From: a virus | Taxonomy: Duplodnaviria; Caudoviricetes | IMG/VR virus record: IMGVR_UViG_3300033072_000529 | DNA length: 64,000 bases | Strand: one strand, 5' to 3' | Shown here: in pieces, positions 40,004-58,687 of the stretch | How positions within the stretch are numbered: the first letter of the stretch is position 1 | Layout: each line of letters begins with the position of its first letter | Translations under genes and position numbers: made by a program | The notes under the pieces: generated by a model | Told to the model about the DNA's origin: nothing | Database searches by the model: none | The model's input: the letters and a program-made list of their open reading frames with translations, nothing else

Positions 40004-41484
40004 TCCTCTTGATTGTAGAATACGCCATCCACTATAGGGTATAGTGGATCGCCGTTATCGAAATACACAGATACATGTGAACCGACTCCAGGTATGCTTA
40101 TCATACCTTTCACTTTGTTATTCTGTGTATTTCCTATTATAGGAGGAAGGATATCAGGTTGTAACTGTTGGTTTAATCCATATATTTTATTAGGGTCTAA
40201 AGTTGATGGTATGGTAGTGCCCATATTTCCTCCTTGTTTGGATTGCATATTAGTCGATCCAATATTATTCTGTAGTAGATTATAAGCAGGCAGAAATTTA
40301 CTATTAGGCATATTGAACATATTACCTGCGCCTCCCCCATGATTATATTGGGGAGTGTTTATGATGCCAGGAGGTAATATAGGTGTAGTAGGTTTGGCTT
40401 CTACCGTTTGATAGGGTGCTAATACTTGCGACAATACGCCTAATCTAGGGGATGATAAATTGGGTTGTTGAGTAGCATCCACCGTCTGCACTACCCAGTG
40501 AGATATATCGTCTGCGTTGAATATGTATGTTCGAGGCGCAGCATAGGTTGTAGGGGTTTGAATCGAGTCTGCTACTCCACTCCCCTCTAAACTCGCAGAA
40601 GCCTGTACACTCACTCTACGACGCAATCGCGCATTGCCTCCTATATTCACTTCAAATTGCGTACCTGTCAGAGTTAATGCGGAACTATTAGTTGCCAATA
40701 TTTGACCATTAGGCTGAATTATGTTCACGGGAACACTCGTAGGCGTAGTAACTTTTGTAGGAGTGACATCAGCCGTGTATAGTATAGGTTTAGAAAAAGT
40801 CTGAGTTACTAATTGCGTAGTTCTGGCTATAGATGCAGTAAATTCATTCGGTCCACCGACATCTGTAGTAGCTGTAACCCCTACAAATCGTCGTCTATTA
40901 GGATTACCTGTTATGCTGATAGTTATTTGTGATATATTATCCTCAGTCGGATTAGCAGAAGGTGTAGGAGTTTTAGTAATAGCAGGTGCAGTAGATACGG
41001 TATCAGGTGCCACTATATGACTCAACGTGTTTTCCGGTGATAAGGCTACAACTTGAGTAGTTTTAGTATTATTCGGACTTACCATATATGGCGTACCAGA
41101 TAATCTATCAGCCAATGATGTTATTGGTGTAGGAGGTAGACTAGTATTCAGATCATTGGATTGAACAGTCTTATTACTGTCATTAGTAGGTTCATAATGA
41201 TCACTATCAGCATTATAAAAACCTGCGGTGCCCATGCCGAATATTGGCTGTTTCACTTGTCCCCAAGGTAGAGCTTGTTTGAGCCTTAATAATATCTCAG
41301 GTGTTAAAGAAGATGCCAAGTTATTCCCTGGATAAGTTACATGTTTATCTACGGTTTTGTCCTTATTCCACTTATCAAAAAGTGTCATATTAACTTCTGG
41401 AACAAAAACTTTCACTCGTCCTATTTTATCAGGATCGTCGTTTTGTATCACTATTCCTCTGTAACTGTGGGGGTATTTTGTCAT
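39949..41484 (-). CDS. gp5: gp5/VgrG-type N-terminal OB-fold protein with long Thr/Pro-rich insertion
   Basis: YRGIVIQNDDPDKIGRVKVFVP...LPW at the N-terminus; GMISIPGVGSHVSVYFDNGDPLYP at the C-terminus. Confidence 0.75.
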   Translation of the reverse strand: MTKYPHSYRGIVIQNDDPDKIGRVKVFVPEVNMTLFDKWNKDKTVDKHVTYPGNNLASSLTPEILLRLKQALPWGQVKQPIFGMGTAGFYNADSDHYEPTNDSNKTVQSNDLNTSLPPTPITSLADRLSGTPYMVSPNNTKTTQVVALSPENTLSHIVAPDTVSTAPAITKTPTPSANPTEDNISQITISITGNPNRRRFVGVTATTDVGGPNEFTASIARTTQLVTQTFSKPILYTADVTPTKVTTPTSVPVNIIQPNGQILATNSSALTLTGTQFEVNIGGNARLRRRVSVQASASLEGSGVADSIQTPTTYAAPRTYIFNADDISHWVVQTVDATQQPNLSSPRLGVLSQVLAPYQTVEAKPTTPILPPGIINTPQYNHGGGAGNMFNMPNSKFLPAYNLLQNNIGSTNMQSKQGGNMGTTIPSTLDPNKIYGLNQQLQPDILPPIIGNTQNNKVKGMISIPGVGSHVSVYFDNGDPLYPIVDGVFYNQEDYAGLHDLASAAAYNNAA

Positions 41485-44028: not shown

Positions 44029-44358
44029 TTAATCTGGTAAATTGATTTGTGAAATTATATCAGATACCACGAAAGATTTCAATATTTTAATTTTGGTATT
44101 GGCTAGAGATTCAAAAGGATTGATAATATTATTAGCTATCAATATAGTCCACCATAAGCGATTATCCCCATAGTATCTATTGGCTAGATCATACCAATTA
44201 TCTGATGATGTCATATAGTACTCATCATATAAGGATGCATCAATATCGCCATCTATATATATTGAATTTAATAGATTATAATATTCGTAGCCATCCTCAT
44301 CTGTATAGGTTTGAAATATATTTGCCATGTCTACGGCAGCTAGTTTATTATTAGTCAT
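44029..44358 (-). CDS. gp53: baseplate wedge gp53/LysM-like protein
   Basis: D.W..LA.RYYGD.RLWW.IL.AN.I.NPF. Confidence 0.8.
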   Translation of the reverse strand: MTNNKLAAVDMANIFQTYTDEDGYEYYNLLNSIYIDGDIDASLYDEYYMTSSDNWYDLANRYYGDNRLWWTILIANNIINPFESLANTKIKILKSFVVSDIISQINLPD

Positions 44359-45343: not shown

Positions 45344-46078
45344 TTATGATCCTGATACAGGTGGTTTTTTGTATATCTCTAAACGTTCCACTAAGAATTT
45401 GACTAGTTCTGATCTTTTGATATCTTCCACACCAAAAGTTCTAACATGAATGCCATAATTCTGTGCCTCTGCATCCAAAAGTTTTTCATATACTGAACTG
45501 AATTGATTATGTTGTTTAATATCAGTCTGTAAGGAGTCGCCCATCAGAAAAATCTTGCAATTATCTGCACAACGTGTTAATATGGTTAATAGTTCTTTAT
45601 ATAGAATATTTTGGGATTCTTCTACTATGATTACGCAGTCTTTGAAATTTCGTCCCCGTAGATAGGATATAGGCGCAAACTCTATTTTGTCTGATTTTCT
45701 AAATTCTGCCAATTCTTCTTCGGTGATGAAATTAGAACATGCTTCGAAAGCAGTTTGAAACCATTCTTCCACTTTATCGTTTTTAGAACCCGGTAAATAT
45801 CCCAAATGTGCCTGTGATGATTCCACCACACTACGTATATATACGATTTTGTTTATCTTTTGGCGATTTAGTAGATTAAGGGCTGCATACATGGCACATA
45901 CACTTTTACCTGTACCTGCTGGTCCTTCGACAAATATAGCTCTAGAGTTAATATTTAACATCAGCTTTATTAATTCTGATTGTTTCTCTGTCCAGTCAAA
46001 AGGTTCTGATAATAGAATATCGCCTTTTAGTTTTCTTTTTACTTCCCCGATGTTTTTGATGCGGTGTTTAGCTGACAT
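45344..46078 (-). CDS. phoH: PhoH-family ATPase
   Basis: GPAGTGKS, RSVVE, LGYLPG, YLRGRNF, EESQN, LTR, GD..Q.D, DI.RS. Confidence 0.95.
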   Translation of the reverse strand: MSAKHRIKNIGEVKRKLKGDILLSEPFDWTEKQSELIKLMLNINSRAIFVEGPAGTGKSVCAMYAALNLLNRQKINKIVYIRSVVESSQAHLGYLPGSKNDKVEEWFQTAFEACSNFITEEELAEFRKSDKIEFAPISYLRGRNFKDCVIIVEESQNILYKELLTILTRCADNCKIFLMGDSLQTDIKQHNQFSSVYEKLLDAEAQNYGIHVRTFGVEDIKRSELVKFLVERLEIYKKPPVSGS

Positions 46079-46101: not shown

Positions 46102-46587
46102 CTACTTTCCCAGTATAGTGTTTATATTTTTTTCAGTTATTATTATGAACGACACATCGCGTCCTTTTCTTCGTTTTTCTTCACACCATTTCTCTGCTGC
46201 CGCCCATTTATCTTGATTGGTTCTATACGTCATCTGTTCATATAGAATAGTAGATGGCTTCTTATTACCATGTGTAGTAGGTTTCACACATTGCTTAGAT
46301 GGTTTCAGTTCTACTATAAATTCTTTGACTTCTGTTTCCGATATGCGTATACGGAAACAGAAGTCTACAAAATAACGGGCATTTCGTTTCTCTATAGATT
46401 TATAATAAGGTATAACGGTTTGTTCAGAACTCCATGAAATAACATTAGGATTCTTATCCAATACCAACATTAAAGATAATTCTAATCCAGATCGATATAT
46501 TATACGACCTTTATTAGTGCATTTATCCTTGTTTTTTGGGGTGAATACTCCCTGTTTGAATTCCCGATATGTCCTCTTTTTTCCCAT
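46102..46587 (-). CDS. gp4: head completion nuclease (TnsA-like)
   Basis: QG.F.PKN..K, YRSG.E, WSSE..VIPY, RYFVDF, VE.KP..Q, N..KW.AA. Confidence 0.85.
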   Translation of the reverse strand: MGKKRTYREFKQGVFTPKNKDKCTNKGRIIYRSGLELSLMLVLDKNPNVISWSSEQTVIPYYKSIEKRNARYFVDFCFRIRISETEVKEFIVELKPSKQCVKPTTHGNKKPSTILYEQMTYRTNQDKWAAAEKWCEEKRRKGRDVSFIIITEKNINTILGK

Positions 46588-47148: not shown

Positions 47149-47205
47149 ATACACTTGTACTTATCTTTTCTCTTGACTTCCCAAAGGGAAGGATTATCAT
47201 ATAGT

Positions 47206-47721
47206 ATGAAAAAAGTTATATCTATACTATTATTAAGTACAATATTTGCGGTGTCTAGTTTGGCCCAGCAAGTACCTCCAACAATTCCTCCTGCGGAATT
47301 GAATACCACCATATCAGAGAAATATTCCTCAGTAGATTTGGCCAAATCCCTAGCATTTAAGCAAGAAGTCAAACGACTAATCAAAGATTTTGCCGACAAG
47401 GGTAATATGGCGTCTGCTAGAAATGTCTATGACTATCTAATCAGCATAGACCCTGATGCAGATGTGTTGAAGACTGACTTTTTTATTAATAAAACCTGGA
47501 AAAGAGAGAATCGATCATTGTATAGATTCGCTCGCGATGGCACAGGCGTTCTGAAAGACAGCGGAACCGTGTCGAATTTCTCCTGGTCTAAAAATGCAGG
47601 GGTAATACACATCATTACATCCCAAGGTGTGCATACCTATGTGCGTTTTGTTACTAAGAATATCGCAGCAATAGGTGAAAACCCTGATCTACCACAGCCT
47701 AAAAAACTAGAATTAAACTGA
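47206..47721 (+). CDS. secreted protein with Sec signal peptide (start moved to ATG 47206)
   Basis: MKKVISILLLSTIFAVSSLA|QQ; TTGACT-N16-TATCAT-N5-ATG. Confidence 0.7.
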   Translation: MKKVISILLLSTIFAVSSLAQQVPPTIPPAELNTTISEKYSSVDLAKSLAFKQEVKRLIKDFADKGNMASARNVYDYLISIDPDADVLKTDFFINKTWKRENRSLYRFARDGTGVLKDSGTVSNFSWSKNAGVIHIITSQGVHTYVRFVTKNIAAIGENPDLPQPKKLELN

Positions 47722-48315
47722 TGAGTTGATAAATATCGGTTCTAATTTGTCGATCTTTTTATTAAGGGAATTAAATTGAGGAGCTTTGATCAATACTCGA
47801 TCAAAGCTCTGTTTGTTTATACAGGGGAAACTAGATGCATATTGGGGATTGATATCCAGATGAAACAATACATCTGGAATATTATCCCATATTTTATGAT
47901 AATTTATGCATATGATATCATATGCATATGATGTATTAACATAGTTATCAAAGAATTGTTCATATTGAATTATATCTGTCGGAATAGCCAACAGTTGATC
48001 CCTGGATATATCGCCCAATTGTTTAATCACCTGTGCATGTACTCCGATGTTTCTCCAATGAACATCTCCAAATGATGCACGGGATGCTATGGAGTGTTCT
48101 GGTTTAGAATATAGATATATGACTTTTGCAGGCTCCAACTCCGGTATAGAACTGAATTGTTCGTGGGGTTTACCATCTGCATCAAAAAAAGGCTTACATA
48201 ACACTTTTGGTGGAAATCTACTATGTATATGATACGCCGTATGACCTAAATTGGTCAGAAAATTACACATCATCCAACTACCACATCCCCCATAACTGCA
48301 TACATAGTATATCAT
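47713..48315 (-). CDS. sulfotransferase-fold protein
   Basis: YVCSYGGCGSWMM (5'-PSB-like loop), H, KVIYLYSKP..SIAS (3'-PB-like), INYHKI; operon with APS kinase. Confidence 0.5.
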   Translation of the reverse strand: MIYYVCSYGGCGSWMMCNFLTNLGHTAYHIHSRFPPKVLCKPFFDADGKPHEQFSSIPELEPAKVIYLYSKPEHSIASRASFGDVHWRNIGVHAQVIKQLGDISRDQLLAIPTDIIQYEQFFDNYVNTSYAYDIICINYHKIWDNIPDVLFHLDINPQYASSFPCINKQSFDRVLIKAPQFNSLNKKIDKLEPIFINSSV

Positions 48316-49115
48316 AACTTAATATATCTATCTATTAGATGTTGTTTGGATTTCAACTGTAAAATTGGAGGTAAGTGTAGATTATAGATTGCCTGGATTT
48401 TTTCGGAAGGATAGAATTGTAAGGGTCTGGTTGAAAAGTTGAGAGTGTTCTGTTTATGATATTGGAAATTATCAGGGCGGTTGATTGTTCCACTTTGTTT
48501 ATGTCCTCTCATGAGTCCTTGATCATGCCAATTGAAACAATATGCTGGTATGCTGTCATCGTCTATCTTTATTTTATCATGTTTGGATAGGTATTCATAC
48601 CAAGATAAATGTTCCCCTCCGCCAGGATGAGGAATATAACCTATATTTCGTATGGTGTCAGTATGCGAAATAATGCTGGCTTCCATGACATTTCCTGCAA
48701 TTTCCGGTAGATCATCGGGTGCACCGGCCCACCACATACTTTTAACAGGTTTCCATGCTAGATAATCAGAGTGGCGATTTATACCATCCCAACATTGCTG
48801 TATGTTCCATGGTAAAAATATATCATCATCATCCCAGCATATATAATATGTTCCAGTTGCATGAGTCATAGCATCCCGTCGAATACTACCCAAATTATTA
48901 TACTCTGTTCCAGTTAGATAATCTGTATTATTATTGATTATTTTTATATTGGATATGTTCTTGAAATCATCTCCCAATACTAGAGGGAATCTCACAGCAG
49001 TATTATATATAATCAACTCTGTGGTGGCAGTTGTATGCTGGTTTAAAAAGAATTGTATAGATCGCTCCACACATTCAAATCTACCATAGGTGGTCATTAC
49101 GCAAGATATATTCAT
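48312..49115 (-). CDS. GT2 glycosyltransferase
   Basis: ISCVMTTYGR, F..Q, ELIIYN, LG..R, WDDDD..LPW. Confidence 0.85.
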   Translation of the reverse strand: MNISCVMTTYGRFECVERSIQFFLNQHTTATTELIIYNTAVRFPLVLGDDFKNISNIKIINNNTDYLTGTEYNNLGSIRRDAMTHATGTYYICWDDDDIFLPWNIQQCWDGINRHSDYLAWKPVKSMWWAGAPDDLPEIAGNVMEASIISHTDTIRNIGYIPHPGGGEHLSWYEYLSKHDKIKIDDDSIPAYCFNWHDQGLMRGHKQSGTINRPDNFQYHKQNTLNFSTRPLQFYPSEKIQAIYNLHLPPILQLKSKQHLIDRYIKL

Positions 49116-49504
49116 GATATTGTGAAAAAGTACGAGGCTTCTTCCATCGTGGGAGGCTCGTATAACGAGTTGGTGTCAGGATATCGTTCATCTCCTGGTC
49201 TTTTTATATAGAAAATTACATCCGGTTGTATGATTTTTCTTAATTCGACAGTAGGACATATGAAATCCAACAATACTATAGAATTGGTAGATTTACCAGC
49301 TAAATCTTTCATACGATGTGCTTGGCGTATCCGTCCTTCTATACTGAAATCCCAATCATTCGCATTTGCTCGTATAATATCAGCATTTAGGTGACAAGAA
49401 TCAGGTAAAATACTGTTTAGTATTTTACTATAAAAGGTTTTACCCGATCCAGGTAAACCGGTGACTAATATTATATGCTTATAAGGTTTGTATGGCATCT
49501 GCAT
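49112..49504 (-). CDS. cysC: adenylyl-sulfate (APS) kinase, short phage type
   Basis: TGLPGSGKT, LNAD.IR, DWDFS.EGRIRQA.RM, DFICP, YEPP. Confidence 0.85.
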   Translation of the reverse strand: MQMPYKPYKHIILVTGLPGSGKTFYSKILNSILPDSCHLNADIIRANANDWDFSIEGRIRQAHRMKDLAGKSTNSIVLLDFICPTVELRKIIQPDVIFYIKRPGDERYPDTNSLYEPPTMEEASYFFTIS

Positions 49505-50330
49505 ATATTGAATTCAATTGTTCAGCCGTTAAGCGGGAGGAAAAATGGTCATATATACTTTTGATAAAAGGATGGTTAGGGTCTTTATATATTTCTAGCC
49601 ATCCTACGAAATAATTCCATACTCTATCCTTTAGATCGTTGGTATAGGGCAACCCGTTTGGTCTACCAAAACGGTGATTCCATTTTAAATTAGGAAGGCA
49701 TATACATTTGGCTCCATTTTGGCGGAATTTTTCGTGTATATATCCCTCTTCGCCTCCAAATCCACGGAATAACGGATTGAAACCCAACCATTCAGATGTT
49801 TTACAAGAGAATAATCCTAATCCTTGAGATGGTATTTCAAATGGCTCACCTATCAACATTGCCATATGATTTGACCCCCAAATACCAAACATACCATCTC
49901 GCCATACAGGATCAAATTGTGTTGAATATCCTTGTAAACTATCATCCCATAATGGTCCTTGTATTAAATTTTTAGTGTTCGGATTTTGTGCGTAATACTG
50001 TAGCAAATGTTTAATCCCATCAGGTTCCAACATAACATGGCAATCCAAGCATAAAGTGTATATACCCTGTGCTAATCTGAAAATTTCATTTCTCGTAGAT
50101 GTGCCAGTCTTATCTTTATATGGAACATATCTAGCAGATATGTTTTTATTAGCATAGCCTTCTATGAAATGTTTGATCGCTTTACCATGAGCAGAATCAG
50201 GATTATTATCAACAACTATCAATTCAAATTGTTGATTATTACAACCCTGATATATACGTAGTGCTTGTACAGTGAAATAAACGCCATCGAAATCATCATA
50301 CACTGCCATACCAATCGTTAATTGTTTCAT
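49479..50330 (-). CDS. GT2 glycosyltransferase
   Basis: LTIGMAVYDD, ELIVVDNNP, RN.IF..AQG...LCLDCH, GFGGEEGY; GTAAATA 6 nt before ATG. Confidence 0.85.
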   Translation of the reverse strand: MKQLTIGMAVYDDFDGVYFTVQALRIYQGCNNQQFELIVVDNNPDSAHGKAIKHFIEGYANKNISARYVPYKDKTGTSTRNEIFRLAQGIYTLCLDCHVMLEPDGIKHLLQYYAQNPNTKNLIQGPLWDDSLQGYSTQFDPVWRDGMFGIWGSNHMAMLIGEPFEIPSQGLGLFSCKTSEWLGFNPLFRGFGGEEGYIHEKFRQNGAKCICLPNLKWNHRFGRPNGLPYTNDLKDRVWNYFVGWLEIYKDPNHPFIKSIYDHFSSRLTAEQLNSIYADAIQTL

Positions 50331-50371
50331 ATCGGATATTTACGAATAGCTATTCATAAGTGCAATATCAA

Positions 50372-52030
50372 TTAAGGAGGGGGTGGTGGGTTAGTGGTAG
50401 ATGTAGGAGGATTAGTAGTGGATGAGGTTGGCCCAATGGTAGTAGAAGTGGACGTAGACGTGGTTGACGTTGTGGGAACCACTGTGGTCGTTGTTGTAGA
50501 CGTAGACGTGGTTGTAGACGTTGTAGGCATCAATGTGGTCGTTGGCATTGGTGTGGTGCTTGTGGTCGTTGTAGTGGTCGTTGTAGCACAATCCTCATCG
50601 TATGTCAATACACCTAGTCCATCAGTTATATATTTTCTGATTCCCTCCACATATACCCCGCTGATTAATTTGGTGGTCAACGATGCATTCAAATAAGCTA
50701 TCGGAGAATCATCTAGATAGTATCCTTCTTGAGTATATATCCGCAGTAATGATCTAGGATCAGATGGACATGCATCATAACCCTCATATAATTCGTAAGG
50801 TGGTGGAACATATGGTGCCGGTGTGGTAGTAGGCGGAATAGGCACAGGGGGTGAACAACCATCCTGATATATAGATTCCTTAAGAATGGATAGCGCAGTA
50901 CCAAACAATATATTCTCATTATCATATACTTGCCGAGGCTGTATATAATTAACCAAACACTTAACATTCTGCCCTTTGATAATTGCATCTATATATTTCC
51001 CTATATATGATTCCAATTCAGCAGACCGAGATAGGTAATATATACCATTACATCCCGCTAGTTCATAAGTCAATTTACTTGCACAATCAGTTCCAGTGTA
51101 ATATGTGTTGGGGTCGATATAGGTAAAGCATTTATCATTTTTAGGCGTGCAGAAATTTATATTACCATTAGGAATGTATTCCCAGCCAGTGCTTCGTTTA
51201 ATATAACTAAACACCCCACTGTATGTATTATATATATTTTGGGTATTAAATTTTGAGAGAATATCGGGTGATATTGTATTCAGTCCTTGACTCACCAAAT
51301 TGTTATAAGTGGGTGCCAATAGTTCCCACTGATATATCAGGGTGTATAGTTGATTGATTGAATATTGCTTAAATGTAGCATATTCAGGATGGCTAAGTGT
51401 TCTATTTAAAATCTGAAATGTATTACTGTTAGGTATAGTAGTACTAGATTTGATTATCAAATCTGCCCGGTTTTCTCTTCGAAATATATTGTTTATAGTC
51501 GATATGATCACATCTACGTGATTTTTATAGATTATAAATGTTTGGATATTTTTGGTGGTAAAACCCAATGCTGCTGATACAGCATTCATAGCTTCTATGG
51601 TGATGTTGCTGACTGCCGTATTGTTCAATACATCAGGATCATAATTTTTAACAAAGAATGTCACATTAGCTATTTGTCCTGTGGATACCGTTTGGACGGT
51701 GTTATTCAACCAGTATAATATATCAGAATAGTTTCCGATATATGCGAAAGTTTTAGGATATATTAGGGATAATGGTGTTAGCCAATATCCTTCCAGATTA
51801 GAAACTGTATTAGTAGTATCTCTCCAACCTGCACTAAGGGTGTTGGTAGTAGTGTATAACTGTTGATATAATGCACTGTTATTCTGCATCAGGGTTGTGA
51901 ATGCACGCATTTTAGCCTCTGTGGTATTATAATCACATAGCCGGAAATTGAATAACTGGAAATTTCCATTAATATCCGCTAATGGATTTCCTAGGGAGTC
52001 AAATATATCAATAGTTTTAACAGTGTTCAT
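50372..52030 (-). CDS. putative virion protein with mucin-like Thr/Ser/Pro C-terminal tail
   Basis: N-terminus paralogous to 52033..52710; ends TTTTTTTTSTTPMPTTTLMPTTSTTTSTSTTTTTVVPTTSTTSTSTSTTIGPTSSTTNPPTSTTNPPPPP. Confidence 0.7.
   Translation of the reverse strand: MNTVKTIDIFDSLGNPLADINGNFQLFNFRLCDYNTTEAKMRAFTTLMQNNSALYQQLYTTTNTLSAGWRDTTNTVSNLEGYWLTPLSLIYPKTFAYIGNYSDILYWLNNTVQTVSTGQIANVTFFVKNYDPDVLNNTAVSNITIEAMNAVSAALGFTTKNIQTFIIYKNHVDVIISTINNIFRRENRADLIIKSSTTIPNSNTFQILNRTLSHPEYATFKQYSINQLYTLIYQWELLAPTYNNLVSQGLNTISPDILSKFNTQNIYNTYSGVFSYIKRSTGWEYIPNGNINFCTPKNDKCFTYIDPNTYYTGTDCASKLTYELAGCNGIYYLSRSAELESYIGKYIDAIIKGQNVKCLVNYIQPRQVYDNENILFGTALSILKESIYQDGCSPPVPIPPTTTPAPYVPPPYELYEGYDACPSDPRSLLRIYTQEGYYLDDSPIAYLNASLTTKLISGVYVEGIRKYITDGLGVLTYDEDCATTTTTTTTSTTPMPTTTLMPTTSTTTSTSTTTTTVVPTTSTTSTSTSTTIGPTSSTTNPPTSTTNPPPPP
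50375..50586 (-). repeat. low-complexity Thr-rich coding repeat
   Basis: Recurrent GTAGACGTGGTTG / GTGGTCGTTG units on the + strand. Confidence 0.8.
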
Positions 52031-52032
52031 GG

Positions 52033-52710
52033 TTATTCAAAAATCTTTGTACCATTAGACCATTCGAGATTAGAATCCAAGGTATAGCGTATACCTATGA
52101 ATTTGTTTATAAATTGGTCTTCTAGTGTCAGCGATGCATTGGTTGATCCGCAGTCTACTTTGGATTGGCCTTTTATAGTTATGCGTCTACTTATACATGA
52201 TGTTGTAGCAGTCCAGTTCACTATCTTTGTTCCTATATTGGATGTGGATGATGCGGTACGATTTATGAAATAATACTCGGGAGAAAATATGTATAGAACT
52301 TGACCCGTGATGTAATTCATACATGATCCGTTTCTAGGAGATACGTTCTCATTCAACCATTGTCGTATGACTTCTATATCAGAAGATGCCGTGAATGGAT
52401 ATGGATAGACCAAGGTTATGGGGGATAACCAAAATCCACTCATTTCACTAACAGTTGTAAAGGTATTTTGCCAGCATGCAGAATTTTGTGCAAGGGTCGT
52501 GTATGCACTATTCCAATTAGCACTTAAAGTGGAGAACGTTGTCAATGCTGGATTAAAAGAAACCCTGATTTCATTCTCCACACCGCATACTTGGTAATCT
52601 AATTGTTTAAAATTCAAGTTGATTGCTGATAAACTATTACCGATGGAATCCCCGCCTAAGATAGGATACACATAGTCACAGTCACCGCTTTTACATAAAT
52701 GTAAGGACAT
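52033..52710 (-). CDS. putative virion/fibre protein
   Basis: DSIGNSLSAINLNF, LSANWNSAYTT...SGFWLSPITLVYP; GTAAATA 5 nt before ATG. Confidence 0.6.
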   Translation of the reverse strand: MSLHLCKSGDCDYVYPILGGDSIGNSLSAINLNFKQLDYQVCGVENEIRVSFNPALTTFSTLSANWNSAYTTLAQNSACWQNTFTTVSEMSGFWLSPITLVYPYPFTASSDIEVIRQWLNENVSPRNGSCMNYITGQVLYIFSPEYYFINRTASSTSNIGTKIVNWTATTSCISRRITIKGQSKVDCGSTNASLTLEDQFINKFIGIRYTLDSNLEWSNGTKIFE

Positions 52711-52714: not shown

Positions 52715-55700
52715 TTATTTACACACCGTCATACAATCTGTAAATCGTTTACTTGGTAATAACACACAGTTGTTTGCTAAATCATCCCAGGTAATACCTT
52801 TCGCGGATAAATCAGCCCATGTAGTAGGAACCAAACAATTACTACCCATGACATTCCAAGTTCTACTATATGGATATATAGTGGATTCAGTCTGACAATC
52901 AGGGCTCACAGCCGTATTCCAAGTGATGGAACTTAATAATGGATTACTCAATTTATTAGTATCGGTTAATTCCCACCAGGAATATGGATTTATACGATCA
53001 CTGGTATTCTGTGGACTTGTGATAGTGTGAGCATTCCAAGTCCAACATACTGGTCCTTGTGTGAAATTATCCCGAACTTGCAACATATCTTGTAATAAGA
53101 GTAAATTATTATAAACTCCGTCAATACTTCTATTGATAGTGTCCCAGGTCACTAATTCATTTATACCCAACAAGGAATAATTCAATGCCGAGAGGGATAT
53201 TTCCGATGCTCTTATATTATCTATGGTGTGTGATAATAGCTCGAAATTGGAATCATATTTCGCGACAAATTTATATTGTATATCCTTCGCTAATAGATAG
53301 ATATTATCATTTAGTTTTTTAAATGTATCATTATATACCACGGGAGATACCAATTCGGGGGAGGTCACTAACATGGAATCGATACTCCATGCAGATGCAT
53401 AGAACTGATGCGTATCCACTGATAAAGGTTCCAAATATTCTAGATATTTGGTTAGTCCGTATGGATTAGATATATACATCTCATTGCCATTGAATGCCAA
53501 ACCTGTAGCAGAAGTGGTCAATATATTGGAACCGATTCTCAATCCATATATGGTATAGGATTTAATAATCGAGCCCGATATTACATATAATAGTTCATTA
53601 TGGAAATATATTTTAGTACCTGTGGATATTGTGAAAGTCCGAACAAGATTCAATGTGGAATCATATAGATAAACCTGTCCTGATTCTGTCAAGACCGCTA
53701 TATATGAGTCATTTGCAGCTACCGCTAGGGGTATATTCGTTCCCGCCCAATCTATGTTGCGAAGATCGCCAATCCAATTGAAGTATGCATTATATATTTT
53801 AACGGTCGGTTCTCCTTGGTCCACAATATAGATATTATCATCTGTATCAATCGTCATATCCATAGGCTTATTCAAATGAATATGTGAATAAGCTGGACCT
53901 GAACCACCCCAATATTGAGCCAACGTCATATCATCTTCAAATGCATAAATGGATTTCTTATCTTTATCCAATACTACTATTTTACTATTTGTATTATTGT
54001 ATACTATTCGAATTGGCTTGACAAACACTTCGCTGGGCGTTATGCTTCGCGCAGACAAGCCCAATGATACTGTAAAATCATTATTCCAAATTTTGATAGT
54101 GTCATCATCAATAATATAAAATTTTCCATCATTATAATATACATCTCCAATATTATGGATTTTATCCGAATATATAGGTGTAGCAAATGTGTTATCCCAA
54201 TGCCATTGTAATGTGGCATTTCTCTCTCCCAACCATCCAATATATTGTTTTGGTAATACTGAATTATAAGTGTATGCCATGCTACTTAGATAGACAATAT
54301 TGGTGTTAATTTTATTGATTGTGCTATTGAGTACAGATTCTAATTGCCAATCATTTGGAGAAATTTGGATATCATTCAAATTATATGGTAATGTGATTTG
54401 ATCGGGGAATTCTCTGATGATATTTTTATCCCAGGTTGGGAAAGAATCACGTATTAAGAAATAGTTTGGCCAAGTCCGTATAATCGGTGATCTACCATCT
54501 GCATAATACCCTGTCATACTAGGAGTATATGTCCCTTCGTTTAGGTATTGTGCGTATATAGGTTCAGATGCACCACTTAATGTAGTAGTTCCAGTATTTG
54601 TACCATCTGTGAAATCAAAATGATCAAATATATCAGGGGTTTGGTTCGATATGCTGATCATCTCACTGGTAGCATATATATTACGGGGAGAGAAAATTTC
54701 TAGATATGGACCATCATATGCTGTCAGTGTTACAACATTGGTTGTTATTTTCTGTGTTATCGGACAAGTATCATAAGGATAATTAGCTGGAGTTTTAATC
54801 ATATTACCTGATAGCGATAATGTGAACACGTTATAACTATTTTCAGTTATATGGAACTGGTTTGTTTTGTCAAAATTAAACTCGTTATTATATGTGAAGC
54901 TGTTACCTGTGAATGATAATTCGTCGGAAACACTGGTTAATCCGGTTTGTGCACTACTAAGAACCCATACTGCATTGGTTGATAATGCAGTATAATTTGT
55001 GGATACATAATTTACGTTTACTATAAACGGTGCATACTTATTAATTGATAAATTCAGATCAGGTGTATTGAGTATAATTGATGGGTTTATAGTTTGCGGA
55101 GTTCTAGGGGTTATCCATCCATTGAATACTGTTGTTCCAGTCGAACTAGCACCATTATATATGGTTATTGGATCGGTTGGCACGAATATATTATTAAATG
55201 CGGATACGTTTATGGATGATATAGGTGATATATCAGAAAATGTTACGCCTATGGTTTCTATATTAGATGTAGAGCTTACTTGTTTAGTACCAATTTTATA
55301 GATATATTGATCAAATCCGCCAAATGTGGATATTATGAAATTTTGTGTACCACATGGGCGCAGATAACGTAATCCACCAGAAGACAGATAGGTATTGTCT
55401 TCTATGTTTAATTTAGTTGTAGGTTGGAATTTATATTCAGGGAAAGCTATGAATTCCAGTTTACGGGGAGTAGAACCCAACACATTAATGCATATTTCAT
55501 CTGTAAAATCATATGCACCAAATCCACCATATTTAGGAATAGCGTCTATAGCTGATATTCTCATACAGTGGGTAGCAGTAAGCGGGAATGTGGCGGATAT
55601 ACCAGTATGTATGGTGTTATCAGGATATAACCATCTGATTTCTCCATAAGATGAGAAATCTTCCAGTATAGCAGATGCAGAAACATTTACAGATGAAGAT

Positions 55701-57901
55701 ACGAAAAATATACTTTCATACTCTCGGGAGTCTAATACTTGTCCATTGGAGCCGGATAGTGATGCATATATATTTGATTGCGAAGGGTAATCCCGTATAT
55801 TGAAAATGCGATTTTGTGATAAATTATAATCCGAGGAGAATACGTTTAATGCGATATTAAACGCTTGTATGGATGGATTATCAGGCGTACTATTAGCCGT
55901 ACATAATGCTTGAGGTTGTATATATTTTTGAATACCAGGGTATGCTATATTCTCAAAAAAGTTCTCGCCACTAGCAGTTTGGAATTGTATATCGGCATTA
56001 TTGTTTTCGTTCCATATAACTGACCCCGATTCCGGCACATCATATATTAAACCATTTTTAAGTATGGTTGGCTTTAATTTTAATTTACTGGATAATAGAT
56101 TGTTTTCAAATGTTCCATCTAACAACAATGATATATTGGCGAAAGATGCAGACGTTGGATACCATTTTATAGACCCTGATGTATTATATTGCTCTGAATA
56201 CATCGATATAGTAGTTGGCTCCACACCTAGGTTTAATATTTCAACTGAAAAATCATTTGCTACTGTTAATGTATTGTGGGGTAATATCTGTGTTCTTTCA
56301 CCGTTTACTAGTTCCCATATAACGGCATTCGCAGAAGGACTCACTGACCATTTTATATTATCGTTGGGGTCAGATGATGGATTTATTATGGATTGTAGTG
56401 CTATTGAATTAGGAGTAGCAGATAATTGTGTTAGCTGGATTAGTGCTTTATCACCATTCAAGGTGAACGTTATGGGGTCTAGCCGGTAGTAGGCACCACT
56501 CAAGGATGCAAACTCTAGTGCAACATCATAGGTGTTCACGTTTCCATCATTTATGAATTTCAGAGGTGCATTCACAGGTATCCAAGTAGATGGAACATAT
56601 ACAATATCTGTATTAGCTATAGGGCTGGCAGATAGTGTTATATCTCCACTAGTGTCTCTAAAGTTCATGAACCAATTATTGGTGTTTTGTTCTATAGGGA
56701 TGTTGGTGGACCAATAGTTATCCGTCATAGTCAATAGAAGATTGACAGAACTAATATCCACATGTACTGTATTCGCAGATGGGTGGAAATATACTACCAT
56801 ATCACGGTTTACCGGTCTACCAGATATCGGGAAGGTGTATATATAATCAAATATAGATGAATTGGTTGATAATGAATAATAGTTATTATCCAGTTTTGTA
56901 AATGATGTAGTTGCTGCTATGGGAGTAGCAGATGTACAGTATGTCAATAGCACATCTGATTGAGCAGGTATTTGGAAATTACTTTTCAGTTTCAGATATA
57001 AGTTCCATTGATTATTAGTTGTGCGGTATAATGTACTGGTCGTATCTAATACATCTCGATCTTCAATAGGTACACCGGATAGAGAATATGCAGTAGCAGA
57101 TGTATTCCGATCCACAGACACACTATATAATAGTGCACTATCTTCTAGATATGAAGTCGATAATGGGAAGGTGACAATAAATGATTGAGGTAATATATTA
57201 GTGTCGAATGGAGAAACTGCCGGTATTTTAGAACCAACTGATGCAGTTTTGCTGCCCAATAAATTGGTATTTTTGGTCGTAGTCATCCATGTCAATTGTC
57301 TTTTCTGATTATTGACTTTTATAACGGGCTCTCTCAGAGATGCGATATTTCCCGATATACCATATAGGGTAGCCGGATCAAGAGACTCATAGTAGTCTTG
57401 TCGAGTGGTCACGTTTTCTAGCCCTATATAGGGAGATAATACAGCAGATAGGGTGAAACTATTATTAACTGCACTACCACTTTGGTATATGGATGTACCT
57501 TGTATGATTGGATAAAAATTGGTAGGAAATACCGCTATTGCCGTTAATCCCCCGTGGAAACTCATATGTCCATACCTATCGCTGCTATTGGAGAAATCCA
57601 CAAATAGTGGATAGTCTGCGGGTATTTCTAGACTGTAATGAGTTTGTTGATATGAATCAGTTTTATCATCATCATATATACCTGATATAACTTGGGAACT
57701 CAATACTGCATATGTAATGCCGACTTGATCGAAGGTTGGTGCATTGCGCCATTTTTTCATCACATCTCCGTCGATATACGTATTATCTCGTATTGCGAAT
57801 GATGTAGAGGCATTAGATTCTGCATCAATATCCTGGGATAGAAAAATACCTAATTTTTCATGGGGAAAAGCGCAGAGAGGAAATACTTCCGATAGAATCA
57901 T
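52715..57901 (-). CDS. very large putative virion protein (Ig/PKD-like segments, NHL beta-propeller, Trp-repeat C-terminus); start moved to ATG 57901
   Basis: Y..EGTYT PKD-like motif; LNKP.D..ID.DDNIYIVD NHL repeat; TATAAATA (57907-57914, - strand) 5 nt before ATG. Confidence 0.7.
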   Translation of the reverse strand: MILSEVFPLCAFPHEKLGIFLSQDIDAESNASTSFAIRDNTYIDGDVMKKWRNAPTFDQVGITYAVLSSQVISGIYDDDKTDSYQQTHYSLEIPADYPLFVDFSNSSDRYGHMSFHGGLTAIAVFPTNFYPIIQGTSIYQSGSAVNNSFTLSAVLSPYIGLENVTTRQDYYESLDPATLYGISGNIASLREPVIKVNNQKRQLTWMTTTKNTNLLGSKTASVGSKIPAVSPFDTNILPQSFIVTFPLSTSYLEDSALLYSVSVDRNTSATAYSLSGVPIEDRDVLDTTSTLYRTTNNQWNLYLKLKSNFQIPAQSDVLLTYCTSATPIAATTSFTKLDNNYYSLSTNSSIFDYIYTFPISGRPVNRDMVVYFHPSANTVHVDISSVNLLLTMTDNYWSTNIPIEQNTNNWFMNFRDTSGDITLSASPIANTDIVYVPSTWIPVNAPLKFINDGNVNTYDVALEFASLSGAYYRLDPITFTLNGDKALIQLTQLSATPNSIALQSIINPSSDPNDNIKWSVSPSANAVIWELVNGERTQILPHNTLTVANDFSVEILNLGVEPTTISMYSEQYNTSGSIKWYPTSASFANISLLLDGTFENNLLSSKLKLKPTILKNGLIYDVPESGSVIWNENNNADIQFQTASGENFFENIAYPGIQKYIQPQALCTANSTPDNPSIQAFNIALNVFSSDYNLSQNRIFNIRDYPSQSNIYASLSGSNGQVLDSREYESIFFVSSSVNVSASAILEDFSSYGEIRWLYPDNTIHTGISATFPLTATHCMRISAIDAIPKYGGFGAYDFTDEICINVLGSTPRKLEFIAFPEYKFQPTTKLNIEDNTYLSSGGLRYLRPCGTQNFIISTFGGFDQYIYKIGTKQVSSTSNIETIGVTFSDISPISSINVSAFNNIFVPTDPITIYNGASSTGTTVFNGWITPRTPQTINPSIILNTPDLNLSINKYAPFIVNVNYVSTNYTALSTNAVWVLSSAQTGLTSVSDELSFTGNSFTYNNEFNFDKTNQFHITENSYNVFTLSLSGNMIKTPANYPYDTCPITQKITTNVVTLTAYDGPYLEIFSPRNIYATSEMISISNQTPDIFDHFDFTDGTNTGTTTLSGASEPIYAQYLNEGTYTPSMTGYYADGRSPIIRTWPNYFLIRDSFPTWDKNIIREFPDQITLPYNLNDIQISPNDWQLESVLNSTINKINTNIVYLSSMAYTYNSVLPKQYIGWLGERNATLQWHWDNTFATPIYSDKIHNIGDVYYNDGKFYIIDDDTIKIWNNDFTVSLGLSARSITPSEVFVKPIRIVYNNTNSKIVVLDKDKKSIYAFEDDMTLAQYWGGSGPAYSHIHLNKPMDMTIDTDDNIYIVDQGEPTVKIYNAYFNWIGDLRNIDWAGTNIPLAVAANDSYIAVLTESGQVYLYDSTLNLVRTFTISTGTKIYFHNELLYVISGSIIKSYTIYGLRIGSNILTTSATGLAFNGNEMYISNPYGLTKYLEYLEPLSVDTHQFYASAWSIDSMLVTSPELVSPVVYNDTFKKLNDNIYLLAKDIQYKFVAKYDSNFELLSHTIDNIRASEISLSALNYSLLGINELVTWDTINRSIDGVYNNLLLLQDMLQVRDNFTQGPVCWTWNAHTITSPQNTSDRINPYSWWELTDTNKLSNPLLSSITWNTAVSPDCQTESTIYPYSRTWNVMGSNCLVPTTWADLSAKGITWDDLANNCVLLPSKRFTDCMTVCK

Positions 57902-57945
57902 AACATTATTTATACACATATAATTCCCGTAAAATGGGAAACTCC

Positions 57946-57973
57946 TTGACATTACCAATATAACTGGTATAAT
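57946..57973 (+). promoter_or_regulatory. consensus sigma70 promoter, probably leaderless
   Basis: TTGACA-N16-TATAAT with TG extension; ATG 6 nt downstream; back-to-back with the late promoter at 57907. Confidence 0.8.
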
Positions 57974-57979: not shown

Positions 57980-58687
57980 ATGACTATAAAGTTAAATACT
58001 TCTCAATTATACCTATTAGGTGATATACATGCTAAATTCGATATATTGGAGAAATATATCGAATTGCTACCTAATGATGTAGCCATTATACAGGTAGGCG
58101 ACTATGGAATAGGATTTAAATCATTCGCGGAAGACTATGAACAGCAGTTTCATATAAACGAAAAACTGGCAAATAAAAATATCAAGATGTTTGTTATTCG
58201 CGGTAATCACGATGATCCATCAAAGTTTGTGGAAGATAGTGATATGAACTTTTCGTATATAACCTTTTTACCGGACTATACTACGTTAGAAGTCAATGAT
58301 AAGAGGATACTATGTGTAGGAGGAGCAATATCAGTTGATCGAGCGGATCGTATAGATAAGATATCATACTGGATTGATGAAATATTCCGTTTACCGGATG
58401 ACATGGCAGCAATATCAACAGACTATGATATATTAGTGACTCATGCTAGTGCCAAGGGAATGCCACCATTTACAACGGGTAATATACGATCATATATAGT
58501 AGATGATCCTAAATTAGAAGCTGATTTGCTTCAAGAAAGGAATCAGATATTACAATTATTACGACACCTTAAACAGGGACCGTTGACACATATGTATTTT
58601 GGACACTATCACCAATATCTAGCTGGTAGATGCGAAGGTGTATTTTACCGAGGATTGATGATAGGTGAAATGGTATCAATATTATAG
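57980..58687 (+). CDS. calcineurin-like metallophosphoesterase
   Basis: GDIH, VGDYG, RGNHD, GGA.SVDR, VTH, FGHYH. Confidence 0.9.
   Translation: MTIKLNTSQLYLLGDIHAKFDILEKYIELLPNDVAIIQVGDYGIGFKSFAEDYEQQFHINEKLANKNIKMFVIRGNHDDPSKFVEDSDMNFSYITFLPDYTTLEVNDKRILCVGGAISVDRADRIDKISYWIDEIFRLPDDMAAISTDYDILVTHASAKGMPPFTTGNIRSYIVDDPKLEADLLQERNQILQLLRHLKQGPLTHMYFGHYHQYLAGRCEGVFYRGLMIGEMVSIL

What the first reader, a model, noticed from the sequence alone, without database searches (positions are those of the whole stretch)
47713..52710. Candidate phage 'sulfomucin' system: mucin-tailed virion protein followed by a late GT2 - APS kinase - GT2 - sulfotransferase operon
Seen: the 552-aa protein at the end of the large-virion-gene run terminates in ~70 residues that are almost all Thr/Ser/Pro. 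41 nt later a four-gene overlapping operon starts with its own late-type promoter (GTAAATA, 6 nt before ATG 50330). It encodes two GT2 enzymes, a CysC-type APS kinase and a sulfotransferase-fold protein. Established: APS kinase makes PAPS, the donor for sulfotransferases, and T/S/P tracts are O-glycan acceptors. Inference: the phage O-glycosylates and then sulfates a bottle-brush tail on its own virion, for shielding, adhesion or mimicry of sulfated glycans. On this reading phage cysC is a virion-modification gene rather than a sulfur-assimilation AMG. No ATP sulfurylase is in the window, so APS would come from the host or from elsewhere in the genome. The sulfotransferase call is the weakest link.
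Basis: partly seen in the sequence, partly recalled or inferred. Interest (0 to 1): 0.88.

Follow-up and report, generated by a model that had tools for sequence, protein, structure and literature searches.

The report
Phage Thr-rich fibre glycosylation-sulfation cassette
A large uncultured T4-like phage has, beside a fibre-like protein ending in a threonine-rich tail, a late operon of two glycosyltransferases, a shortened APS-kinase-like enzyme and a sulfotransferase-fold protein; related phages keep the pairing of Thr-rich protein and first glycosyltransferase, so the phage probably sugar-coats this protein and may also sulfate the sugars.

Summary
The 552-aa protein ends in 77 residues of which 62 are Thr, Ser or Pro. 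This is the only such tract among 69 ORFs in the window. A four-gene operon starts 41 nt later.

Both GT2 calls pass Pfam's cut-off. The kinase belongs to a family of more than 800 short (about 140 aa) proteins. By profile and by fold this family is nearest to APS kinases, but it lacks their lid. The 200-aa protein has a confident sulfotransferase fold, but it lacks the Lys/Arg of the 5'-phosphosulfate loop.

New comparative evidence:
- In the GT2a clade that holds the window, 11 of 15 evaluable viral loci have a Thr-rich ORF ending 0-46 nt upstream of GT2a. Only 3 of 790 control ORFs have such a tract.
- Three syntenic relatives keep the same structural backbone but swap the genes after GT2a. 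They carry methyltransferases and other GTs where this phage has the kinase and the sulfotransferase-fold gene.
- None of 83 GT2a/GT2b loci carries the kinase or this sulfotransferase family.

Glycosylation of the Thr-rich protein is therefore well supported by association. Sulfation is plausible but unproven, and whether the protein is in the virion is inferred. Giant-virus fibril glycosylation clusters with an APS kinase and a sulfotransferase are a published, unvalidated precedent.

The parts
52715..57958 (-). 1747-aa giant fibre-like protein that heads the conserved block
   Evidence: No Pfam or PHROG hit. Homologs of 1326-1706 aa sit in the same position in L100, L101 and L137 (E 1e-145 to 1e-160).
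52033..52710 (-). 225-aa protein whose N-terminal ~110 residues are paralogous to those of the 552-aa protein; GTAAATA lies 5 nt upstream
   Evidence: BLASTP gives 36% identity, E 2e-16. Motif. Homologs precede the p552-like gene in L100, L101 and L137.
50372..52030 (-). 552-aa orphan fibre-like protein, the proposed glycan acceptor
   Evidence: No Pfam or PHROG family. Only itself was found among 5.8 billion proteins. Three homologs were found through GT2a loci (E 1e-32 to 1e-42).
50375..50605 (-). Thr/Ser/Pro-rich C-terminal tail (residues 476-552: T39, P12, S11)
   Evidence: It is the only such tract in the window. The L101 homolog ends in a 102-residue T/P/E tract.
50337..50343 (-). GTAAATA (core TAAATA), 6 nt before the GT2a start; a late-type start-proximal signal
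   Evidence: TAAATA lies upstream of 12 of 68 starts against 0.57 expected. It is also upstream of GT2a in L100 and L101.
49479..50330 (-). GT2a: GT-A glycosyltransferase (family 2) with invariant D96-x-H98; the conserved head of the cassette
   Evidence: Pfam PF00535, 31 bits. At least 287 viral homologs at 51-66% identity. Invariant columns. Thr-rich ORF upstream in its clade.
49112..49504 (-). 130-aa short APS-kinase-like P-loop kinase, lid-less
   Evidence: Pfam PF01583, 25.3 bits. Family of more than 800 proteins. A family profile hits APS kinases first (2yvu, E 3.9e-11). AlphaFold2 pLDDT 94.6; Foldseek's top matches are APS kinases at TM 0.70-0.74, with gluconate kinase close behind.
48312..49115 (-). 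GT2b: second GT-A glycosyltransferase (WDDDD motif)
   Evidence: Pfam PF00535, 28.2 bits. Co-occurs with GT2a in 8 of the 80 GT2a loci; the other 3 of 11 hits are the loci fetched with GT2b itself.
47713..48315 (-). 200-aa sulfotransferase-fold protein of a divergent, mostly viral family
   Evidence: AlphaFold2 pLDDT 92. VIA-align: the top 19 chains are all sulfotransferases, Z 8.0-6.7. ESM Atlas: TM 0.76-0.78 to a cluster in which 71% of members carry Sulfotransfer_1. 6 of 15 relatives hit PF00685. Fusions to GT domains.

Best explanation
This is a late-expressed glycan-decoration cassette of a T4-like jumbo phage, and none of its four enzymes shows an obvious membrane anchor, so they are probably cytoplasmic. 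GT2a probably starts an O-glycan on the Thr-rich tail of the fibre-like protein encoded just upstream, and GT2b probably extends it. The short APS-kinase-like enzyme would turn host APS into PAPS. The sulfotransferase-fold protein would use PAPS to put sulfate on the glycan, at the cassette position where related phages carry sugar methyltransferases.

Shown: the genes, their folds, the shared start-proximal motif, and the recurrent pairing of a Thr-rich protein with GT2a.

Inferred: the acceptor, the sulfate chemistry, and that the protein is on the virion.
For: 1. Acceptor-enzyme pairing. In 11 of 77 GT2a loci, the ORF ending 0-46 nt upstream has at least 70% S/T/P over 30 residues, against 3 of 790 control ORFs. 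On the GT2a tree these loci make up 11 of 15 evaluable rows of the window's clade, plus one separate subclade. The Thr-rich proteins are of unrelated types: InlB-type repeats, an FGE-sulfatase/lectin-like domain, a glycine-rich domain.

2. Synteny. L100, L101 and L137 keep the order p1747, p225, p552-like, Thr-rich ORF, GT2a, a variable block, p108, gp4-like, PhoH. Their variable block holds FkbM and SAM methyltransferases, a GT32-like enzyme, GT2b or a polysialyltransferase-like protein. It behaves as a glycan-decoration slot.

3. Sulfotransferase fold. The family domain is fused to GT2, GT9, GT10, Stealth, Gly_transf_sug, a methyltransferase and a canonical Sulfotransfer_1 domain. The three closest viral relatives sit among GT and sugar-nucleotide genes. 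The family consensus keeps the 3'-phosphate motif R70...S78.

4. Another relative, L093, has a different small sulfotransferase-like protein in the same slot after GT2b, with the motifs YRSGGT and YRNVDDVIFS.

5. Kinase. It is nearest to APS kinases by profile and by fold. The residues that align with the APS-binding Arg, Phe and Arg, and with the second Asp of D-G-D, are invariant in the family. The motif PDTNSLYEPP aligns with FTGIDDPYEPP of a solved APS kinase.

6. Kinase neighbours elsewhere. Genes with a Pfam sulfotransferase hit lie within 4 kb of family members in a bacterial glycan island (L004) and in a 92-kb phage-like contig (L179).

7. Timing and setting. The TAAATA motif is shared with baseplate genes. 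The operon sits in a structural block with gp53-like, gp5-like and gp4-like genes.
Against: - The whole sulfotransferase-fold family lacks the Lys/Arg of the 5'-phosphosulfate loop (YGGCGS). This member also has Ser in place of the 3'-phosphate Arg.
- The kinase lacks the lid, has N-A-D instead of D-G-D, and matches gluconate kinase almost as well by fold. As a single sequence it hits Sep-tRNA kinase slightly better than APS kinases.
- No kinase or family sulfotransferase lies within 8 kb of GT2a/GT2b in 83 loci. No kinase, GT2a or GT2b lies near the sulfotransferase-fold gene in 80 loci.
- The closest sulfotransferase-fold relative sits alone in a bacterial contig.
- Most GT2a homologs (clade B) follow a PD-(D/E)XK nuclease in replication modules, with no Thr-rich neighbour.
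- No ATP sulfurylase is in the window, and the rest of the contig could not be searched.
- Whether p552 is in the virion, and whether any glycan exists, is untested.
Confidence: 0.4

Rival explanations
1. The cassette does glycosylate the Thr-rich protein, but the kinase and the sulfotransferase-fold protein do not carry out PAPS-dependent sulfation. The kinase might phosphorylate a sugar, the glycan or another small molecule. The fold protein might use a different donor or be non-catalytic.
For: The 5'-phosphosulfate Lys/Arg is absent from the whole family, and the 3'-phosphate Arg is absent here. The kinase is lid-less, with N-A-D for D-G-D. Gluconate kinase is almost as close by fold. Family members also sit where no sulfotransferase is seen: between a carbamoyltransferase and a dCMP deaminase (L175), in the L177 glycan island, and inside a 245-aa protein of Xylella phage Sano.
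Against: By profile, solved APS kinases fill most of the significant matches. The APS-contact residues are invariant. Pfam sulfotransferase genes recur near the kinase family. The fold matches sulfotransferases better than kinases.
Confidence: 0.22
2. The operon acts on something other than the 552-aa protein. Candidates are host envelope glycans or lipid-linked intermediates (surface remodelling, superinfection exclusion), or glycans made by the 15-kb island at 1588-16936 for another virion part. On this reading the Thr-rich tail is only a flexible linker.
For: Marine phage GT islands are usually read as host-surface modification (PMC12801897). The nearest solved match of the GT2a profile is TarP, a teichoic-acid GlcNAc transferase; that TarP is prophage-encoded is from my own knowledge. 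Clade B GT2a homologs lack Thr-rich neighbours. The window carries a large separate glycan island.
Against: The Thr-rich ORF is tightly adjacent and on the same strand in 11 of 15 evaluable clade A loci, across unrelated Thr-rich proteins. The late-type motif and structural setting also argue against it. No membrane anchor is apparent in any of the four enzymes on reading their sequences; no predictor was run.
Confidence: 0.2
3. The kinase is an ordinary sulfur-assimilation auxiliary gene (viral cysC) that happens to sit among glycosyltransferases.
For: Viral cysC is catalogued as an assimilatory sulfate-reduction gene and is found almost only in marine and freshwater viruses (bioRxiv 10.1101/2021.01.05.425418).
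Against: It overlaps both flanking GT genes within one operon, under a late-type signal. No cysH, cysD or cysN was seen among the 42 of the 69 larger window ORFs that were scanned. Family members in cellular contigs sit in glycan islands, not in cys operons.
Confidence: 0.06
4. The glycosyltransferases modify phage DNA, as T4 glucosyltransferases do.
For: Clade B GT2a homologs lie in replication modules beside a nuclease and a polymerase.
Against: Here the operon is in the structural block, next to a Thr-rich protein. Nothing links a sulfotransferase fold or an APS-kinase-like enzyme to DNA modification.
Confidence: 0.04

Closest known systems
Megavirinae (Moumouvirus australiensis, Cotonvirus, Tupanvirus) fibril-glycosylation gene clusters with Ma457 (SAT/APS kinase) and Ma461 (sulfotransferase), PMC10117803
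   Same: A virus-encoded APS kinase and a sulfotransferase sit inside a cluster of glycosyltransferases thought to decorate a virion appendage. Sulfation is predicted and unvalidated in both. The sulfotransferase-fold family found here is common in giant-virus bins.
   Different: This is a bacterial virus. The kinase is a 130-aa lid-less form without the ATP sulfurylase domain. The sulfotransferase lacks the canonical 5'-phosphosulfate Lys/Arg. A Thr-rich acceptor gene lies directly upstream. No homology to Ma457 or Ma461 was tested.
Mycobacteriophage virion O-glycosylation (Freeman et al. 2023, as cited in PMC12619734)
   Same: Phage-encoded glycosyltransferases lie next to structural genes, and the glycans sit on C-terminal parts of virion proteins.
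   Different: There the acceptors are the capsid and tail-tube subunits and the glycans were demonstrated. No kinase or sulfotransferase is involved. Here the acceptor is an orphan fibre-like protein with a mucin-like tract, and nothing is demonstrated.
Bacterial sulfated-glycan loci that pair PAPS synthesis with a sulfotransferase (for example rhizobial NodPQ with NodH; from my own knowledge)
   Same: A dedicated PAPS supply is encoded beside a carbohydrate sulfotransferase. The short kinase family also lies in a bacterial glycan island that carries a Sulfotransfer_1 gene.
   Different: Those loci use full-length APS kinases with an ATP sulfurylase, and sulfotransferases with a canonical Arg/Lys loop.
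Viral cysC auxiliary metabolic genes (bioRxiv 10.1101/2021.01.05.425418)
   Same: The same Pfam family (PF01583) in aquatic viruses.
   Different: That work files cysC under sulfur assimilation and never mentions sulfotransferases. Here the gene is embedded in a glycosyltransferase operon.

Membership tests
APS kinase (CysC, PF01583, EC 2.7.1.25) | Pfam PF01583 score above the gathering cut-off | tested here: met
   25.3 bits against a cut-off of 21.1, but only profile positions 4-92 of 152 are matched.
APS kinase (CysC, PF01583, EC 2.7.1.25) | Walker A P-loop GxxGxGK[ST] | tested here: met
   GLPGSGKT at residues 16-23, invariant in the family.
APS kinase (CysC, PF01583, EC 2.7.1.25) | D-G-D motif | tested here: inconclusive
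   N40-A41-D42 aligns with D-G-D of 2yvu. The second Asp and the following Arg (R45) are invariant, but the first Asp is Asn.
APS kinase (CysC, PF01583, EC 2.7.1.25) | APS-contact residues (Arg, Phe, Arg after the D-G-D motif) | tested here: met
   R45, F53 and R58 are invariant and align with the corresponding residues of solved APS kinases. That these residues contact APS is from my own knowledge.
APS kinase (CysC, PF01583, EC 2.7.1.25) | Full-length core with the mobile lid (about 170-210 aa) | tested here: not met
   130 aa here, and about 135-150 aa across the family. Profile matches to solved kinases stop at about position 84-94. The C-terminal FTGID.PYE.P-like motif follows directly.
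APS kinase (CysC, PF01583, EC 2.7.1.25) | Structural similarity to solved APS kinases | tested here: met
   Foldseek's top match is 5cb8 (E 2.6e-6). TM by query is 0.63-0.74 for APS kinases, which make up most of the top 50. Gluconate kinase scores nearly the same.
APS kinase (CysC, PF01583, EC 2.7.1.25) | Makes PAPS from APS and ATP | not testable with these tools
   Needs an enzyme assay.
PAPS-dependent sulfotransferase (Sulfotransfer_1-type fold) | Sulfotransferase fold | tested here: met
   VIA-align: the top 19 chains are all sulfotransferases (Z 8.0-6.7, 144-165 residues aligned, rmsd 3.4-4.9), with kinases below them. ESM Atlas: TM 0.76-0.78 to a cluster in which 71% of members carry PF00685. 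Foldseek against PDB is weak (best E 8.5e-3).
PAPS-dependent sulfotransferase (Sulfotransfer_1-type fold) | Pfam sulfotransferase model hit | tested here: inconclusive
   This protein has none. 6 of 15 relatives hit PF00685 (best E 4.3e-5) and 3 hit PF13469.
PAPS-dependent sulfotransferase (Sulfotransfer_1-type fold) | 5'-phosphosulfate-binding loop with Lys or Arg (PKxGTT / RSGxT) | tested here: not met
   The loop reads S-Y-G-G-C-G-S-W. Gly is nearly invariant at the expected Lys/Arg position in 150 family representatives.
PAPS-dependent sulfotransferase (Sulfotransfer_1-type fold) | 3'-phosphate-binding motif, Arg then Ser eight residues on | tested here: inconclusive
   Family consensus is R70 (99 Arg, 28 Lys) and S78 (130 of about 148). 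This protein has S70-K71...S78. The profile aligns this stretch with the RNPKD..VS motif of SULT4A1.
Glycosyltransferase family 2 (GT-A fold) | PF00535 above cut-off and an acidic metal-binding motif | tested here: met
   GT2a 31.0 bits and GT2b 28.2 bits, cut-off 23.3. GT2a has invariant D96-x-H98. GT2b has WDDDD.
Phage virion O-glycosylation system (mycobacteriophage type) | GT genes adjacent to the gene of a structural protein with a Ser/Thr-rich acceptor region | tested here: met
   A 41-nt gap separates the Thr-rich protein from GT2a. The pairing recurs in relatives.
Phage virion O-glycosylation system (mycobacteriophage type) | The acceptor is in the virion and carries glycans | not testable with these tools
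   The phage is uncultured. Virion status is inferred from the structural-module setting.
Giant-virus glyco-cluster with SAT/APS kinase and sulfotransferase | ATP sulfurylase domain joined to the kinase | tested here: not met
   The kinase is a stand-alone 130 aa. No ATP-sulfurylase hit appeared among the 42 of the 69 larger window ORFs that were scanned. The rest of the contig could not be searched.

The most novel reading that the evidence does not exclude
Aquatic phages display mucin-like, O-glycosylated Thr-rich appendages whose glycans are diversified by swappable decoration cassettes. In this phage the decoration is sulfate, made with a minimal lid-less APS kinase and a sulfotransferase family that lacks the canonical lysine. 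It would follow that many 'viral cysC' genes of marine and freshwater viruses supply PAPS for glycan sulfation rather than for sulfur assimilation.
Probability: 0.3. Interest if true: 0.82.

Novelty: new variant of a known kind. Interest (0 to 1): 0.66.

Why it matters
If true, this would be the first bacterial virus predicted to make a sulfated glycoprotein on its own particle. It would extend virion glycosylation, shown so far in mycobacteriophages and giant viruses, to abundant uncultured aquatic phages.

The conserved pairing of a Thr-rich protein with GT2a gives a simple and testable enzyme-acceptor pair. The variable block after GT2a (methyltransferases in relatives, kinase plus sulfotransferase fold here) suggests that phage surface glycans diversify much as bacterial O-antigens do.

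It would also change how viral cysC genes are counted in sulfur-cycle surveys. And it would define two unusual enzyme families: a 130-140 aa APS-kinase-like kinase, and a sulfotransferase fold without the loop lysine.

Tried and rejected
- Cultured phages: no DNA or protein match for the region, the 522-aa baseplate-region protein, the sulfotransferase-fold protein, GT2a or GT2b.
- The 552-aa protein: no relative among 5.8 billion proteins, and none by pattern scan of viral contigs. Relatives appeared only through GT2a loci.
- Whole genome: none is held, and the Logan contig is not searchable, so ATP sulfurylase elsewhere on the 272-kb contig could not be checked.
- Short kinase in four relatives' records: no match, but these records are 9-42% complete fragments.
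- Profile-profile comparison of the sulfotransferase-fold family with single small P-loop proteins beside other phage kinases (L008, L011) and with the L092 and L093 candidates: nothing significant, although the L092 and L093 alignments put the two motifs in register.
- A regular-expression scan for sulfotransferase motifs, and jackhmmer from the L092 and L093 candidates, found nothing further.
- Foldseek of the 200-aa model against PDB gave only weak rows. The fold call rests on VIA-align and the ESM Atlas.
- The 7-mer GTAAATA and the T4 consensus TATAAATA are both under-represented in the window, so they were dropped in favour of the core TAAATA.
- Not run: complex prediction and read mapping, because neither would settle the chemistry.

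Full report
**Setting.** The window is part of a 272-kb metagenomic contig, with about 36% G+C and no tRNA gene. The minus-strand block at 39.9-58 kb carries weak but coherent T4-type structural markers:
- a gp5-like spike OB domain (39949-41484),
- a gp53-like wedge protein (44029-44358),
- a gp4-like head-completion protein (46102-46587),
- PhoH (45344-46078).

Cultured phages hold no DNA or protein match to this region. Start codons have no Shine-Dalgarno sequence. That would fit a Bacteroidota host, as proposed for the large aquatic 'moraphages' (PMC12619734), but membership of that lineage was not tested.

**The observation.**
- *Thr-rich tail.* Residues 476-552 of the 552-aa protein hold 39 Thr, 12 Pro and 11 Ser. 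No other ORF of the 69 in the window exceeds 0.44 Ser+Thr in any 25-residue stretch. The tract uses all four Thr codons and only imperfect repeats, so the amino-acid composition appears to be what is kept.
- *Paralogous N-terminus.* The first ~110 residues of the 552-aa protein are paralogous to the 225-aa protein upstream (36% identity, E 2e-16). A shared N-terminus like this is what one would expect of alternative fibre-type proteins that use the same anchor (inference from my own knowledge).
- *Promoter-like motif.* GTAAATA lies 6 nt before the GT2a start. The 7-mer and the T4 consensus TATAAATA are both under-represented. The core TAAATA, however, lies within 25 nt upstream of 12 of 68 starts, against 0.57 expected. 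It usually sits 5-7 nt before the start, and mostly before structural genes. The signal is real and ties the operon to the structural genes. Whether it is a late promoter that gives leaderless mRNAs or a translation signal is open. An earlier scan note saw the same pattern genome-wide.

**The enzymes.**
- *Glycosyltransferases.* GT2a and GT2b pass the Pfam GT2 cut-off. GT2a has an invariant D-x-H. Its nearest solved relative by profile is TarP, a teichoic-acid GlcNAc transferase (E 2e-5), which is not informative about the acceptor.
- *Kinase.* The 130-aa kinase belongs to a family of more than 800 proteins of about 135-150 aa, mostly from marine samples. A family profile hits solved APS kinases first (2yvu, E 3.9e-11) and they fill most of the significant matches, but only over the first ~84 positions. 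The P-loop is invariant, as are the second Asp of D-G-D, the following Arg, and a Phe and an Arg that align with APS-contact residues; the first Asp is Asn. The lid is missing. The C-terminal motif that aligns with FTGIDDPYEPP of a solved APS kinase follows directly. The AlphaFold2 model is confident (pLDDT 94.6). Foldseek ranks APS kinases first (E 2.6e-6, TM 0.63-0.74) with gluconate kinase nearly equal. 'APS-kinase-like, lid-less' is the accurate label; 'CysC-type' overstates it.
- *Sulfotransferase-fold protein.* The 200-aa protein has no Pfam hit of its own. Its model is confident (pLDDT 92). In an exhaustive structural comparison the top 19 chains are all sulfotransferases (Z 8.0-6.7), ahead of P-loop kinases. 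ESM Atlas models in which 71% of members carry Sulfotransfer_1 match at TM 0.76-0.78. Six of 15 relatives hit PF00685. The family is large (986 representative clusters) and mostly viral, including many giant-virus bins. Its consensus keeps the 3'-phosphate motif Arg...Ser at the canonical spacing, but this member has Ser-Lys in place of the Arg. The whole family lacks the Lys/Arg of the 5'-phosphosulfate loop. So the fold is confirmed, but canonical catalysis is not.

**What the sulfotransferase-fold family does.** Domain fusions link it to GT2 (twice), GT10, GT9 (twice), Stealth, Gly_transf_sug/Caps_synth, a methyltransferase and a canonical Sulfotransfer_1 domain. In its three closest viral relatives it overlaps GT1-type, GNT-I-like and DUF6492 genes, a nucleotidyltransferase and a methyltransferase. 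A glycan-modifying role is well supported. The closest relative of all, however, sits alone in a bacterial contig.

**The key comparative result.** GT2a has at least 287 homologs in viral contigs at 51-66% identity.
- In 11 of 77 loci where the upstream ORF can be read, that ORF ends 0-46 nt before GT2a and has at least 70% Ser/Thr/Pro over 30 residues. Two more loci reach 67%. Among 790 other ORFs of 150 aa or more in the same loci, 3 do. The tracts are 28-270 residues long.
- On a GT2a tree the loci split into two well-supported clades. Clade A (19 rows, including the window) has the Thr-rich neighbour in 11 of 15 evaluable rows, counting the window and the two loci at 67%. Clade B (62 rows) has it in one subclade only; elsewhere GT2a follows a PD-(D/E)XK nuclease in replication modules.
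- The Thr-rich proteins are of unrelated kinds: InlB-type B-repeats, an FGE-sulfatase (lectin-like) domain, a glycine-rich domain, and p552 homologs. The pairing is therefore with the Thr-rich tract rather than with one protein family.

**A swappable decoration slot.** L100, L101 and L137 are syntenic relatives. They keep the order giant protein, p225-like, p552-like, Thr-rich ORF, GT2a, variable genes, p108, (p101), gp4-like, PhoH. The variable genes are:
- L101: an FkbM methyltransferase fused to GT2a, a GT32-like protein, GT2b and a SAM methyltransferase.
- L100: a GT2/GT32 fusion and an FkbM methyltransferase.
- L137: a polysialyltransferase-like protein.

In the window the same slot holds the kinase, GT2b and the sulfotransferase-fold gene. 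None of the 83 GT2a/GT2b loci carries the kinase family or this sulfotransferase family within 8 kb. None of 80 sulfotransferase-fold loci carries the kinase, GT2a or GT2b. The pair is thus a lineage-specific addition to a conserved glycosylation core.

A different small protein with both canonical sulfotransferase motifs, and Atlas neighbours that carry Sulfotransfer_1, occupies the slot after GT2b in L093. A second candidate lies just upstream of GT2a in L092, judged by motifs only.

**Is the kinase tied to sulfation elsewhere?** In seven contexts sampled:
- A gene with a Pfam sulfotransferase hit lies within 4 kb in a bacterial glycan island (L004), in a 92-kb phage-like contig (L179), and here by fold.
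- Two other phage contigs (L008, L011) place the kinase after small P-loop proteins of unknown family. In L008 it is followed by a HIGH-motif nucleotidyltransferase with a faint ATP-sulfurylase hit (E 0.07).
- Two contexts (L175, L177) show no sulfotransferase.

In Xylella phage Sano and its relatives the domain is part of a longer protein. This is suggestive, not decisive.

**Literature.**
- Glycans at the C-termini of mycobacteriophage capsid and tail-tube subunits are established (Freeman 2023, as cited in PMC12619734).
- Giant-virus fibril glycosylation clusters contain a SAT/APS kinase and a sulfotransferase. The authors suggest sugar sulfation and say it needs validation (PMC10117803).
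- Viral cysC is catalogued as an assimilatory gene found almost only in marine and freshwater viruses, with no mention of sulfotransferases (bioRxiv 10.1101/2021.01.05.425418).
- Full-text searches found no paper linking Thr-rich phage proteins to adjacent glycosyltransferases.

**Verdict.** My estimates:
- About 0.65 that GT2a glycosylates the adjacent Thr-rich tract.
- About 0.6 that the protein is a virion appendage.
- About 0.45 that the kinase and the sulfotransferase-fold protein add sulfate through PAPS.
- About 0.4 for the joint reading; the three parts are not independent, because one working system would make all of them true together.

It is a new variant of a kind already predicted for giant viruses and partly demonstrated for mycobacteriophages. 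What is new here is the comparative evidence for the pairing of a Thr-rich protein with GT2a, and for a swappable decoration cassette.

Noticed in passing
window 1588-16936 (+): A large glycan-building island: Nucleotid_trans, Exostosin GT47, two SDR epimerase/dehydratases, a methyltransferase, a GHMP kinase with SIS isomerase and cytidylyltransferase-like protein (looks like a heptose pathway), and DUF7796. Several families are more typical of eukaryotes or giant viruses. Apart from the palindrome shared by the divergent starts at 9448 and 9473, it lacks the TAAATA start motif, so its timing probably differs from the late cassette.
   Followed up: partly
L008:3182-8833 and L011:3138-6165: In other marine phage contigs the short APS-kinase-like gene sits in a conserved run: a TctA or TctC transporter part, two small P-loop-like proteins of no known family, then the kinase. 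In L008 it is followed by a 129-aa HIGH-motif nucleotidyltransferase with a faint ATP-sulfurylase hit; in L011 the downstream 149-aa gene has no clear family. This could be a minimal PAPS module and deserves its own look.
   Followed up: partly
window, 12 gene starts (e.g. 35935, 37947, 42446, 44019, 44358, 45334, 50330, 52710): TAAATA lies 5-7 nt before the start codon, with no Shine-Dalgarno sequence anywhere. That implies leaderless or near-leaderless late mRNAs.
   Followed up: partly
window 47155-47721 (+): An ORF convergent with the operon, overlapping the end of the sulfotransferase-fold gene by 9 nt. From an internal Met it has a signal-peptide-like start (MKKVISILLLSTIFAVSSLAQQ). It has weak homologs (E 3e-5 and 7e-5) in L137 and L142, in L137 in the same reverse orientation. 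Small reverse-strand ORFs with lipoprotein-like starts also lie nearby in L100 and L101, but homology to them was not shown.
   Followed up: partly
L104-L171 (GT2a clade B): GT2a homologs at 51-56% identity sit directly after a ~340-aa PD-(D/E)XK nuclease, near primase/helicase and polymerase genes of smaller phages. Their target there is unknown and may differ.
   Followed up: partly
L175:6511-8860: A short-kinase family member overlaps a carbamoyltransferase upstream and a dCMP-deaminase-like gene downstream, next to radical SAM/SPASM genes. This context hints at nucleotide or nucleoside modification rather than sulfation.
   Followed up: no
window 38003-40003 (+): A protein with an AAA+ domain and an M41 peptidase domain lies on the opposite strand, between the gp5-like OB gene (39949-41484) and a 671-aa gene (35932-37947).
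   Followed up: no
window 57980-61977: A cluster of a metallophosphoesterase, an ATP-grasp (R2K) protein, a NADAR protein and another phosphoesterase. In Xylella phage Bacata the short kinase lies beside a NADAR/GTP cyclohydrolase II gene.
   Followed up: no
window 8621-9448 (-): A LAGLIDADG homing-endonuclease-like ORF sits alone on the minus strand inside the glycan island. It is flanked by the palindromic TAATAAATATTTATTA promoter-like sequence.
   Followed up: no
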